Source: the human T2T-CHM13v2.0 reference genome, Homo sapiens. Taken from it: DNA of 64,000 nt. Below the pieces are notes generated by a model. It did not search any database, was not told where the DNA came from, and worked only from the letters and a program-made list of their open reading frames with translations. The DNA lies in assembly GCF_009914755.1 (NCBI RefSeq), contig NC_060938.1; one strand, given 5' to 3'. The position numbers and the translations under genes were made by a program. This document shows, one piece after another, positions 2,395-7,839 of the stretch; the first letter of the stretch is position 1; the number at the start of each line of letters is the position of its first letter.

Positions 2395-2553
2395 CATACA
2401 TACACAAATATATATATATATACATGTTTACATTTTATATTCTGTATTGGCAAATATATGTATGTGTGTGTGTATGTGTATATATATGTGTATATATATA
2501 CACATATACACATATATATACAAACACACAATACACACACACACACACACACA
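2395..2553. repeat. Compound (TA)n/(TG)n/(CA)n microsatellite
   Basis: Alternating purine-pyrimidine dinucleotide runs. Confidence 0.9.
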
Positions 2554-4888: not shown

Positions 4889-5529
4889 TGAAGTCTTAAA
4901 TATACTTGGAGAGGTGAGGATGAAGTAGGGCCAAAGAGAAAAAGGCTCCAAGGAAGTGATCAGTTGTTTTTGTGTTTAATTTGTTTTCTTTTCTTTCTTT
5001 CTTTTTTCTTTTTTTTTTAAGCTGAGCAAATGACTGAGAAAACAGAGTTCTAGAGACATTGAGACGGTAAAGTGTCCAATTTTTAAAAAAATTGTCCACT
5101 TTAATTTTTAAAGAAACAGTATTTAATAAGTTCTCAATCTGATGATGTCATTTTTCTGTCTTCCGAAGTCTTCTGAAATCATCAGTTTGACTTTATGTTT
5201 GCTTCTAACACCAAGCTTCACCAAGGCACATTTAAGCTTATTTAGGGAAAAAAAGTCATGAAGAACAAAGCAAAAAGCAGATTTTAGATCTTAACTTTCA
5301 CAAATATTCCATCTCTTCCCTTCTAAACAAGTCATAGAAACTATGGACAAAAGTAGACTCGTGTGTAAGAAAAAACAAAGAGTTTATATCTGACTGTAGA
5401 ATGAGTTTTGGACTAATTTTTTTCAGGAGTCAGAGTAGGAAGGCCAGGAACCTAGGCCACCTTTTTGGTGCTCAGCACGTGGTGAGAAACCCAAAATGAC
5501 CACTGATACATGCACTTGCCTTCTCATGT

Positions 5530-5860
5530 TGAGACAGCCAAGCATAAAGAGACTCCCTACCGGCCTGCGCACTGGGCAGAGTGCACGCTGGGGTGGAGCC
5601 TCAGGAAGTTGGCGCCATTTTGCAGAGGGGAGGAGCCTGGCCTCTTCCTTTTCCGGTGTGGAACCTGGGATTCAGTCTGTGAGAATGGAAGCGTCTTAGC
5701 AGGACTGTGGCTTTGCTAAGGGTCCCTGTTTCCCTTTTTTTTCTTTCCACCCAACACACCCTGTCCTTCTCACCCTTCAAAGTGTCTGCAAGCCTAATTT
5801 TTCATGGTTGTGTGACAAGGACCCCGTTTTTAGCTGAACTAAGGAGAAAGCCCTACAACA
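5530..5860 (+). mobile_element. ERV1 solo LTR (MER61-like)
   Basis: TG...CA ends (tgagacagcc...cctacaaca), 4-bp TSD atgt (5526-5529 / 5861-5864); resembles the MER61 consensus as recalled. Confidence 0.8.
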
Positions 5861-6131
5861 ATGTTTTGTCTTTCCTCGCCATTAGCAGTTCCATTTGGTA
5901 AGATAATTTCATTTAAGTGGACAGTCAGTCCAGCAACATGATAAATAGTTTTGTCTGGGATCAAATTTCTATTACTTATCCGAAGCTGATGTCATTTTGA
6001 ATTACAGTCATCACACTTCTTTACTCTGATCCCATTCTCTCATTTAGTAGTACTAAAATTCTTCCAATTCACGTTTTCTTTTGTAAGTCAAGATCTCATG
6101 TTATTTACTGTTATTTACTCAAAAGTCAGGT

Positions 6132-6231
6132 CTTTTGAGGTCTCCTGTTATTTACTGTTATTTGGCCAGTGGGTCTACTTCAATTAAGACTCATTGGGTG
6201 AATAACAGTAAATAACAGGAGACCTCAAAAG
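6132..6231. repeat. Perfect 31-bp inverted repeat with a further imperfect inner stem
   Basis: 6132-6162 cttttgaggtctcctgttatttactgttatt is the exact reverse complement of 6201-6231. Confidence 0.95.
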
Positions 6232-6983
6232 TCAGGCAGGTCTGGTTCTTGATGTCATTGCTTCAAATTCTGATTCCCGTTTATCTTCATCAGATTGCCA
6301 AGGATCGAAAATCAATTTATATCACTTCCTTGCTAACTGAGGGAGTGCACTGAGCTTTGTATTTATTAGCTGGAGAAAAATTCTTATTCAATATAACAGA
6401 TTGCTATATTTCACATTAGTACTATAAACTAAAATTTTCTTTCTCTCTGAAAAACAAAAAAATGCCTCTTCTAGGTGTTTCCACCATACCCTGGGCTTTC
6501 TCCTATCTTAGTACAAATCACACCATGTTGAAATTCCCTATTTATGGGTCTGTTTTTACCTTTGGAGTGTAAGCTTCCTAAAAATAGGGGCTGTGCCTGG
6601 TTCCCTGTTTTATCCCTAGCTCCAAGCACTGCCTGGTACATTAAATAGGCAAGCCTGAAATCGTTTGATGACACTGAGATTTGAAAAGAAAGTAGGCCCA
6701 GAGGGCTGGCAGGATTTCTGTTCAATTGCCCAGTTAGATTAAATAAGGCTACCTAGATGTTTAGAAACAGTGCTCTGTTATGTAAAGGAAGGCTGAAAAT
6801 TTTTAAAATAAAGTCTTCTGGTGGTTTGTTGTTGTTGTTGTTGTTGTTGTTTGGCAAATGAGAAGAAAACATGAGCTGATCCCCTTGTGTACTTAGAATC
6901 CTGAGGTTTTTGTCATGACCCCAAAACACTTCCTAGAAATACCAAGTCTCCTCTGAAGTCTCAATTGGGTATTTGCCTTTCTC

Positions 6984-7839
6984 TCTCTCTCTCTTTTTTT
7001 TTTTTTTTTTTTTTGGAGACTGAGTCTCGCTCCGTCATCCAGGCTCGACTGCAGTGGCAAGATCGTGGCTCACTGCAACCTCCACCTCCTGGAATCAAGC
7101 AATTCTCCTGCCTCAGCCTCTCAATAGCTGGGATTACAGGCGTGCAACACCACGCCCGGCTAATTTTTTTGTATTTTTAGTAGAGACGGGGTTTCACCAT
7201 GCTGGCCAAGCTGGTCTCGAACTCCTGACCTCGTGATCCACCCACCTGGTCTCCCAAAGTGCTGGAAATTACAGGCGCGGTGGCTCACGCCTGTAATTTC
7301 ATGTTTTTATTACCGGTGAACTTAAAATTAAGGTGATATATTTTCTTCTGGCTGACAAGAACAGATAATATCATCCCAGCAAATAGTTTTCTAGAGGCAC
7401 TGAGCCTCCTATAAACATTTTCATTTATCTAACTGGCATCAGAGCAGCCTGCGCCACAACTGTTGCCAGCCTCTTCTCTCAACACCAACCTCATATCGTC
7501 CTTGTGTGTTCCACCCTACCAAGGATAGAGGGATCAAGGAAGCTCCTGTGGCAAACGGATTCAGTTTTATCTCATCCTAAAAAAACACTGTAATGTCATG
7601 AAAAATCAAGCCAAAACTGAGGAGGAAGGAGAGAGAGACGTGACTTTTAGTTTTAACACTTGTCTATTCATTAACCCCACCCACCTCCAATCACTTTTGG
7701 CTCCGGGTACATACGGCTTATATTTATGACTAATGCCTGGTATTCTTTCTTTACCTTGGGCCTTCCTTGGAGGAGCAAATCCTGCTGGAGCTGCCTAGAG
7801 GGTTCTGTGATTTACAGGCGTGAGCCACCGCGCCTGGCC
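6984..7839 (-). mobile_element. AluS interrupted near its 5' end by a templated insertion (Alu parts 6984-7277 and 7815-7839)
   Basis: Alu body up to ...gaaattacaggcg, resuming ttacaggcgtgagccaccgcgcctggcc; TSD-like gggt(a/g)tttgcc at 6967 and 7840. Confidence 0.95.
7301..7814 (-). repeat. Inverted duplicate of 8431-8948 inserted inside an Alu
   Basis: Hand alignment to the reverse complement of 8431-8948 gives ~17 substitutions and 3 small indels (~96% identity). Confidence 0.97.

What the first reader, a model, noticed from the sequence alone, without database searches (positions are those of the whole stretch)
6132..6231. Pre-miRNA-like 45-bp hairpin whose imperfections are G-U wobbles only on the GNG2 sense strand
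Seen: 31 perfect pairs (6132-6162 / 6201-6231) continue inward for 14 more positions (6163-6176 / 6187-6200): 9 Watson-Crick, 4 G-U and 1 G-G mismatch, closing a 10-nt loop acttcaatta. All four transitions are G-U on the + strand and would be A-C mismatches on the - strand; with n=4 this is only suggestive. Inference: the geometry resembles a Microprocessor substrate and fits de novo miRNA birth by template switching. I do not recall an annotated miRNA here.
Basis: partly seen in the sequence, partly recalled or inferred. Interest (0 to 1): 0.7.

Follow-up and report, generated by a model that had tools for sequence, protein, structure and literature searches.

The report
Single-copy intronic hairpin, probably neutral
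A real, one-of-a-kind 100-base inverted repeat sits in a GNG2 intron and was most likely made by local copying errors during DNA replication; it is an ordinary by-product, not a demonstrated microRNA gene.

Summary
Arms 6132-6176 and 6187-6231 form 45 positions (40 Watson-Crick, 4 G-U, 1 G-G) around a 10-nt loop. The fold is far beyond chance: RNA + strand -76.1 kcal/mol, z -10.5.

It is single-copy in the T2T genome, so it is not a recognisable MITE. It matches no Rfam family at threshold.

All 5 imperfections lie in the inner 14 positions (p = 0.0016). A third, diverged direct copy lies just upstream at 6091-6133. Together these point to at least two local copy events. The last was a 31-nt template-switch or fold-back copy laid onto an older quasi-palindrome.

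As a Microprocessor substrate it is sub-optimal:
- The stem is 45 bp, against an optimum of 36 +/- 3.
- There is no basal UG, no CNNC and no apical UGU at the expected places.
- The loop length fits.

The "G-U only on the sense strand" pattern is 4 of 4 (one-sided p = 0.06). Three of the four polarise as A>G on the sense strand, the known direction of transcription-linked mutation bias.

Only 57 of 6,054 comparable template-switch hairpins are annotated miRNAs. Verdict: a neutral passenger hairpin. A miRNA role has about 5% odds and cannot be tested here.

The parts
6132..6162 (+). Outer 31 nt of the left arm, perfectly complementary to 6201-6231. Either the young copied block or its template.
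   Evidence: Exact 31-nt inverted match. With up to 3 mismatches the whole T2T genome holds only these two occurrences, 1 forward and 1 reverse.
6163..6176 (+). Inner 14 nt of the left arm, the older quasi-palindrome. Against 6187-6200 it forms 9 Watson-Crick, 4 G-U and 1 G-G.
   Evidence: P(>=9 of 14 Watson-Crick by chance) = 0.002. All 5 non-Watson-Crick positions of the 45 lie here (hypergeometric p = 0.0016).
6177..6186 (+). 10-nt loop or spacer, ACTTCAATTA.
6187..6200 (+). Inner 14 nt of the right arm.
6201..6231 (+). Outer 31 nt of the right arm, the perfect reverse complement of 6132-6162.
6091..6133 (+). Third, diverged copy (U) of the arm unit, in direct orientation to the left arm (offset 47 nt) and inverted relative to the right arm.
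   Evidence: pair I2: 6091-6122 against 6194-6225, 32 nt, 88% complementary. 18-nt exact direct match 6099-6116 = 6146-6163 and 17-nt exact inverted match to 6201-6217. Three-way alignment A1.
6118..6130 (+). First copy of the 13-nt direct repeat CTCAAAAGTCAGG. Its first 8 nt also pair with 6132-6139 as a mini-hairpin.
   Evidence: direct 6118-6130 = 6224-6236; inverted 6118-6125 / 6132-6139.
6224..6236 (+). Second copy of the 13-nt direct repeat. It overlaps the last 8 nt of the right arm and runs 5 nt beyond it.

Best explanation
This is a locally generated quasi-palindrome in a GNG2 intron, with no demonstrated function.

Proposed history (inferred): a short imperfect inverted repeat (6163-6176 / 6187-6200, around the 10-nt spacer) already existed, next to a duplicated AT-rich unit (TGTTATTTAC x2). 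During DNA replication the nascent strand switched template, either by an intrastrand fold-back primed on the inner quasi-palindrome or by a jump to the opposite strand. It copied 31 nt in reverse complement and then returned. This produced the perfect outer block in one step.

An earlier copy event left the diverged third copy at 6091-6133 and the 13-nt direct repeat.

Because GNG2 is on the + strand, the element is transcribed passively inside the pre-mRNA. There it would fold into a very stable 45-bp hairpin that is removed and degraded with the intron.

Shown: the anatomy, single-copy status, two-layer divergence, stability of the fold, and lack of a match to any known RNA family. Inferred: the template-switch mechanism, the order of events, and the absence of function.
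For: (1) The structure is real and far from chance.
(2) It is single-copy. BLAST of 6085-6245 and of 5880-6500 against the whole T2T assembly finds only the locus itself and its own reverse-strand self-matches (3 of 3 matches in each). The 31-nt arm with up to 3 mismatches occurs only at the two arms.
(3) Divergence is in two layers: 0 of 31 outer against 5 of 14 inner positions differ (p = 0.0016). Three consecutive differences (6163-6165) sit exactly at the edge of the perfect block. That sharp boundary is what a copied segment leaves.
(4) A third copy and a 13-nt direct repeat show repeated local copying. Each copy carries the same 10-nt tandem.
(5) Template switching is documented to turn near-palindromes into perfect ones and to create whole hairpins in one event, for example a 28-base event at hsa-mir-4713 (PMC10710096, passages read). 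In genic regions of the primate-to-human lineage it is credited with 31,007 new stems, 6,054 of them of miRNA size, of which only 57 (0.9%) are annotated miRNAs (section 9).
(6) Evidence against a known RNA gene: no Rfam family reaches its gathering score. The best is mir-4880 at 36.7 bits against 100, and weak generic hairpin matches fall on both strands. The hub's RefSeq table lists no MIR gene in the window.
(7) Features are sub-optimal for Microprocessor.
Against: No outgroup genome could be consulted, so no ancestral state without the repeat has been seen. The template-switch origin rests on internal anatomy alone.

A single switch does not explain everything. The third copy, the 13-nt direct repeat that overlaps the right arm, and the mini-hairpin 6118-6139 need at least one more event, and I could not reconstruct a unique path.

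The locus is absent from the great-ape template-switch lists of PMC7954356. This is weak, because I searched by recalled hg38/hg19 coordinates and one file was too large to read. It would fit an event older than the human-chimpanzee split, or one their method could not align.

Absence of function is not shown. No small-RNA, CLIP or editing data are reachable here. A perfect 31-bp block could in principle also be held by selection. G-U-only imperfections are what RNA-level constraint would leave.
Confidence: 0.66

Rival explanations
1. It is a young, unannotated intronic miRNA (or hairpin-derived siRNA) gene. The GNG2 pre-mRNA hairpin is cut by Drosha/DGCR8 and Dicer into ~22-nt RNAs, the gene having been born by template switching.
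For: [quoted passage not shown] The fold is very stable. The 10-nt loop falls within the enriched 8-16 nt range. Imperfections are G-U only on the sense strand. Template switching contributed to at least 18 human miRNA genes (abstract).
Against: The base rate is 57 of 6,054 (0.9%) for such hairpins. The stem is 45 bp against an optimum of 33-39 nt, and lengthening a stem reduced processing strongly in the reporter tests of PMC5340965. The positions expected for a basal UG read TC, no CNNC lies 16-18 nt past either modelled 3p end (the nearest CNNC 3' of the stem is at 6261, 30 nt from the base), and there is no UGU/GUG in the loop. The basal and apical 'rulers' disagree by 10 nt. No Rfam miRNA family reaches threshold and the hub's RefSeq table has no MIR gene. 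No arm substring occurs in the 8 supplementary files of the 2,469-candidate survey PMC4054668. 0 papers hold the arm strings in full text.
Confidence: 0.05
2. The intronic 45-bp duplex acts as double-stranded RNA without being diced. It could be an ADAR editing substrate or a binding site for dsRNA-binding proteins, with a possible modest effect on GNG2 pre-mRNA processing.
For: There are 44 predicted pairs, 31 of them perfect, kept in longer context folds. The arms are A/U-rich (outer block 32% G+C). That long duplexes attract ADAR is my own recalled knowledge; it comes from no call.
Against: No editing or binding data could be consulted. The hairpin lies more than 12 kb from the nearest annotated exon in the window (18747, hub table), so a splicing effect is not expected. 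Binding would not by itself mean function.
Confidence: 0.08
3. It is the remnant of a palindromic DNA transposon (MITE) or another inserted mobile element, with the 13-nt direct repeat as its target-site duplication.
For: It has inverted terminal-repeat-like arms. A 13-nt direct repeat (6118-6130 / 6224-6236) brackets most of the element. An interspersed repeat lies about 270 bp upstream (5520-5864).
Against: There is no other copy anywhere in the 3.1-Gb assembly by BLAST or by pattern with up to 3 mismatches. The second 'duplication' copy overlaps the right arm by 8 nt instead of flanking it, and the left arm's outer 8 nt pair with the first copy. That is the mark of local copying, not of insertion. 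The upstream repeat's matches end near 5864 and do not reach the hairpin. No Dfam library was available, so very old, highly diverged families are not excluded.
Confidence: 0.03
4. An old 45-bp palindrome decayed by point mutation, and RNA- or DNA-level selection kept the outer 31 bp intact. No recent copy event occurred.
For: The non-uniform distribution of differences would also arise if the outer stem were constrained. The surviving inner differences are mostly wobble-compatible.
Against: The perfect block runs to the very base of the stem and ends in three adjacent differences, a pattern more typical of a copy boundary than of graded constraint. There is no known functional class for such an element, and no support from family searches.
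Confidence: 0.1

Closest known systems
Template-switch-mutation (TSM) hairpins of the primate lineage (Monttinen, Frilander and Loytynoja 2023, PMC10710096; four-point model of Loytynoja and Goldman 2017, PMC5453318, seen in the search listing only)
   Same: A perfect reverse-complement block lies next to its template and forms a new or longer stem in one step. It is in a gene intron on the sense strand. The copied length (31 nt) resembles the 28-base event described for hsa-mir-4713.
   Different: No ancestral sequence is available here, so the defining before/after comparison is missing. Extra features (third direct copy, 13-nt direct repeat) imply a multi-step history. [quoted passage not shown]
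Quasi-palindrome correction by strand switching (cited in PMC10710096 as its refs 16 and 17; the attribution to Ripley is recalled)
   Same: An imperfect inverted repeat is made perfect or extended by copying one arm from the other. Here the inner 14 positions are the imperfect core and the outer 31 are perfect.
   Different: The classic cases correct mismatches inside an existing palindrome. Here the perfect part lies outside the imperfect core, that is, extension rather than correction.
Canonical animal pri-miRNA hairpins
   Same: A stable stem-loop with a 10-nt apical loop in an intron, in sense orientation.
   Different: The stem is 45 bp against 36 +/- 3 nt. It lacks a basal UG, CNNC and apical UGU/GUG at the expected places. 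The outer 31 bp have no bulges. There is no family match and no expression evidence.
MITE-derived miRNA hairpins (MADE1 / miR-548 family; recalled, from no call)
   Same: A near-perfect palindromic hairpin of about 80-100 nt in introns.
   Different: Those are multicopy transposon families. This sequence is unique in the genome.

Membership tests
Canonical pri-miRNA (Microprocessor substrate) | Stem length about 35-36 nt (optimal 33-39) | tested here: not met
   The stem has 45 positions (44 pairs plus 1 G-G). The optimum of 36 +/- 3 nt and the loss of processing on lengthening are from PMC5340965.
Canonical pri-miRNA (Microprocessor substrate) | Unstructured apical loop of about 10 nt or more (enriched range 8-16 nt) | tested here: met
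   10-nt loop at 6177-6186. The range is from PMC5340965 and PMC10710096.
Canonical pri-miRNA (Microprocessor substrate) | Primary-sequence motifs: basal UG, CNNC a few nt 3' of the stem base, apical UGU/GUG | tested here: not met
   the expected basal UG positions read TC under both ruler models; no CNNC 16-18 nt past either modelled 3p end (CNNC starts at 6142, 6175, 6178, 6223, 6261 only); no TGT or GTG in the loop (GTG at 6169 lies inside the stem). These motifs are helpful but not obligatory; the UG and UGU/GUG motifs occur only in a minor subset of miRNAs.
Canonical pri-miRNA (Microprocessor substrate) | Discrete 5p/3p small RNAs with 2-nt 3' overhangs, dependent on DROSHA/DGCR8 | not testable with these tools
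   No small-RNA-seq or CLIP data are reachable. Indirect checks found nothing: no arm substring in 8 supplementary files of PMC4054668 and 0 papers with the arm strings.
Known miRNA families (Rfam 15) | Covariance-model score at or above the family's gathering score | tested here: not met
   best scores are mir-4880 36.7 against 100 and mir-582 33.1 against 84. Weak hits fall on both strands. 0 of 21 listed matches reach gathering.
Template-switch-mutation hairpin | A block that is the exact reverse complement of nearby sequence, with sharp boundaries | tested here: met
   31-nt exact inverted match. 0 of 31 against 5 of 14 differences, p = 0.0016, with three adjacent differences at the boundary.
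Template-switch-mutation hairpin | Ancestral or outgroup sequence lacks the block, and the change is explained by one four-point switch better than by substitutions and indels | not testable with these tools
   No primate genome is held. A scan of genome contigs with a flanking 20-mer gave only 2 chance bacterial matches of 20-21 nt. The locus is not in the event lists of PMC7954356 (recalled coordinates).
MITE / palindromic DNA transposon | Many dispersed copies sharing the terminal inverted repeats | tested here: not met
   Only self-matches in the 3.1-Gb assembly. The arm pattern with up to 3 mismatches occurs 1 forward and 1 reverse, both at this locus.
MITE / palindromic DNA transposon | Target-site duplication immediately flanking the inverted repeats | tested here: not met
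   The 13-nt direct repeat overlaps the right arm by 8 nt (6224-6231) instead of flanking it.

The most novel reading that the evidence does not exclude
The hairpin is a very young, possibly human- or ape-specific (even polymorphic) template-switch product that GNG2-expressing cells already process into small RNAs. It would then be a miRNA or hairpin-siRNA gene caught at birth, with G-U-only decay reflecting early RNA-level constraint.
Probability: 0.04. Interest if true: 0.5.

Novelty: new member of a known kind. Interest (0 to 1): 0.18.

Why it matters
As it stands it matters little. Hairpins made by local template switching are frequent raw material in primate genes: 31,007 new stems, 6,054 of them of miRNA size (PMC10710096). 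Under 1% are annotated as miRNAs.

The locus is a clean textbook example of a layered quasi-palindrome: an old imperfect core, a young perfect extension and a third diverged copy. It could serve as a test case for dating such events.

If small RNAs were found, it would add one more case of de novo miRNA birth. It also shows that G-U-only decay on the sense strand should not be read as selection without allowing for the A>G transcription-strand mutation bias.

Tried and rejected

2. Known RNA family: Rfam with permissive E-values on 5000-7500 gave only sub-threshold generic hairpin matches.

3. Multicopy element: three whole-genome searches found only the locus itself. A viral-contig scan with a 21-nt arm string gave 0 matches.

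These share only 20-21 nt with the window, so they are chance matches.

5. Published template-switch lists:
- The 3 supplementary files of PMC10710096 that could be read hold no GNG2 or chr14 entry (one further file was too large to read).
- The 6 readable files of PMC7954356 hold no GNG2 and no coordinate beginning 5192 or 5239 (table format checked).
- Those coordinate prefixes rest on hg38/hg19 positions I recalled, and one file was too large to read.

6. Published novel-miRNA candidates:
- PMC4054668, 8 files: no match.
- PMC6468295: supplement unreadable.
- Londin et al. 2015: not held under the DOI or under a PMC id I recalled.
- Full-text search for four arm strings: 0 papers.
- GNG2 combined with intronic or novel miRNA terms: nothing specific in the 15 listed of 182 papers (listing only).
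These candidate lists may still hold the locus where I could not read them.

7. A unique step-by-step reconstruction of the rearrangement from the three copies and the 13-nt direct repeat was not possible. I considered several paths (a 106-nt insertion bounded by the direct repeat; a tandem duplication followed by a switch; fold-back on the mini-hairpin 6118-6139). None can be chosen without an outgroup.

8. Uniform decay of a single 45-bp palindrome is rejected at p = 0.0016.

Full report
**Observation**

- The repeat finder gives arms 6132-6176 and 6187-6231, 45 nt, 89% complementary, 10 nt apart.
- A position-by-position count gives 40 Watson-Crick pairs, 4 G-U (6163/6200, 6164/6199, 6169/6194, 6172/6191) and one G-G (6165/6198).
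- The outer 31 positions are an exact inverted match.
- As RNA, the + strand (6085-6245) folds to -76.1 kcal/mol, z = -10.45, with 0 of 200 shuffles as good.
- The - strand reaches -59.3, z = -8.83, and its inner stem opens, because the four wobbles become A-C there.
- The hairpin keeps 44 of 45 pairs in 401-nt and 601-nt context folds.
- As single-stranded DNA it folds to -41.4 kcal/mol, z = -13.3.
- Of 7 inverted repeats of 22 nt or more within 300 nt in the whole window, 2 are at this locus. The other 5 lie in a TG/TA microsatellite or an Alu-like element.

**What it is not**

It is not a recognisable multicopy element.
- BLAST of 6085-6245 and of 5880-6500 against the 3.1-Gb assembly returns only the locus and its own reverse-strand self-matches (3 matches each).
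- The 31-nt arm with up to 3 mismatches occurs once forward and once reverse, both here, and 0 times in the reversed-pattern control.
- A wider query (5600-6800) picks up an interspersed repeat, but its matches cover only query 1-271. A second query places that repeat at about 5520-5864, about 270 nt short of the hairpin.

It is not a known RNA family. With permissive thresholds Rfam lists only sub-threshold, generic hairpin matches on both strands. The best is mir-4880 at 36.7 bits against a gathering score of 100, and 0 of 21 matches reach gathering. The hub's RefSeq table lists no MIR gene in the window.

**Anatomy that bears on origin**

1. The imperfections are not spread evenly. All 5 lie in the inner 14 of 45 positions (hypergeometric p = 0.0016). 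Three of them (6163-6165) are adjacent, exactly at the end of the perfect block.
2. The inner 14 positions are still paired above chance: 9 of 14 Watson-Crick, p = 0.002. So there is an older, diverged core and a younger, perfect extension.
3. A third copy of the arm unit (U, 6091-6133) lies directly upstream, in direct orientation to the left arm.
   - It is 88% complementary to 6194-6225 over 32 nt.
   - It shares an 18-nt exact direct match with the left arm and a 17-nt exact inverted match with the right arm.
   - In the three-way alignment it differs from both arms at two positions of the shared core, where the arms are identical to each other.
4. A 13-nt direct repeat, CTCAAAAGTCAGG, occurs at 6118-6130 and 6224-6236. 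The second copy overlaps the right arm by 8 nt. The first copy pairs with the start of the left arm as a mini-hairpin.
5. U and the left arm each carry a TGTTATTTAC tandem, and the right arm carries its reverse complement.

Together these show repeated local copying in both orientations, with the left/right outer block as the latest event.

The 62 nt of the two outer blocks show no difference between the arms. At 1e-9 substitutions per site per year, the chance of that falls to 0.5 at about 11 My and to 0.05 at about 48 My (22 and 97 My at 0.5e-9). These rates are my assumption. The block is therefore young on a mammalian scale, but it need not be human-specific.

**Mechanism (inferred)**

The simplest account is template switching during replication. 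The pre-existing inner quasi-palindrome lets the nascent strand fold back, or lets it pair with the opposite strand. Thirty-one nucleotides are then copied in reverse complement, and synthesis returns to the original template.

This process is described in print (PMC10710096, passages):
- It converts near-palindromes into perfect ones.
- It creates whole stems in one step.
- One example is a 28-base event at hsa-mir-4713.

I could not decide which arm is the copy, nor fit the third copy and the 13-nt repeat into a single event. At least two events are needed.

No outgroup sequence is available in these tools.
- An attempt to find primate DNA among prokaryote assemblies gave only two chance 20-21-nt matches.
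- The great-ape event lists of PMC7954356 do not contain the locus. I searched those by recalled coordinates, and one file was unreadable.

**The G-U asymmetry**

Four of four transitions giving G-U on the sense strand is p = 0.0625 by a one-sided sign test.

Using U as a paralogous outgroup (alignment A1):
- 6164 and 6169 polarise as A>G in the left arm.
- 6200 polarises as A>G in the right arm.
- 6172/6191 is unpolarised.
- The G-G polarises as C>G in the left arm.

All polarised transitions are thus A>G on the + strand, which is the non-transcribed (sense) strand of GNG2. [quoted passage not shown] 2003, as cited in the introduction of PMC12458470; passages read). An A>G change in an A-U pair always yields G-U. 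Mutation bias plus small numbers therefore suffices.

One caveat applies. U is a paralogue whose inner alignment is uncertain, so the polarisation is tentative.

**Is it miRNA-like?**

Only in part.
- The loop (10 nt) fits the enriched range of 8-16 nt.
- The stem (45) lies outside the optimal 33-39 nt. Extending a stem strongly reduced processing in PMC5340965 (passages).
- With a 13-bp basal ruler the 5p arm would start at 6145, leaving 32 bp above the cut. With a 22-bp apical ruler it would start at 6155. The two disagree by 10 nt.
- The expected basal UG positions read TC.
- No CNNC lies at the expected distance. The nearest one 3' of the stem is at 6261.
- The loop has no UGU or GUG.
- These motifs are not obligatory, so this lowers the miRNA reading but does not exclude it.

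The base rate is low: 57 of 6,054 template-switch hairpins of miRNA size in human genes are annotated miRNAs (PMC10710096, section 9).

Literature checks found nothing for this locus:
- 0 papers hold the arm strings.
- No arm substring or GNG2 entry occurs in the 8 supplementary files of PMC4054668.
- Two other candidate catalogues could not be read.

**Verdict**

This is a real, single-copy, layered quasi-palindrome. It was most likely produced by local template switching and is carried passively in a GNG2 intron (confidence about 0.66).

Rivals:
- An old palindrome held by selection: 0.10.
- A dsRNA-binding or ADAR substrate with some effect: 0.08.
- An unannotated young miRNA: 0.05.
- A transposon remnant: 0.03.
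- The remainder is left for an assembly artefact or something not considered.

It is an unreported instance of a well-described and frequent kind of mutation product. Interest is low unless small-RNA data show processing.

Noticed in passing
window 5520-5864: Interspersed repeat of about 345 nt with more than 1,300 first-look candidates genome-wide. The 39-40 scored copies are 77-86% identical. The size suggests a solitary LTR-like element. The family could not be named, since no Dfam library is available.
   Followed up: partly
window 7014-7160 (-) and 7133-7156 / 7274-7297: Alu-like sequence. It matches Metazoa_SRP at 65.2 bits, just under the gathering score of 70, together with sub-threshold Alu-derived miRNA family hits (mir-1268, mir-1972, mir-3135). 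It also contains a 24-nt inverted repeat, and it coincides with the masked stretch 7059-7314.
   Followed up: no
window 2408-2530: TG/TA-rich microsatellite that forms several overlapping low-complexity palindromes (4 of the 7 inverted repeats).
   Followed up: no
window 6099-6119, 6145-6163, 6201-6218: The copied unit carries the tandem TGTTATTTAC. TATTTAC / GTAAATA fits the forkhead core RYAAAYA as I recall it (from memory, from no call), so the triplicated unit places several forkhead-like cores within about 130 nt. These may well be chance occurrences in AT-rich sequence.
   Followed up: no
window 6118-6139: Mini-hairpin CTCAAAAG / TCAGGT / CTTTTGAG at the base of the large hairpin. Its 5' half is also the first copy of the 13-nt direct repeat. 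This may mark a switch point of an earlier copy event.
   Followed up: partly
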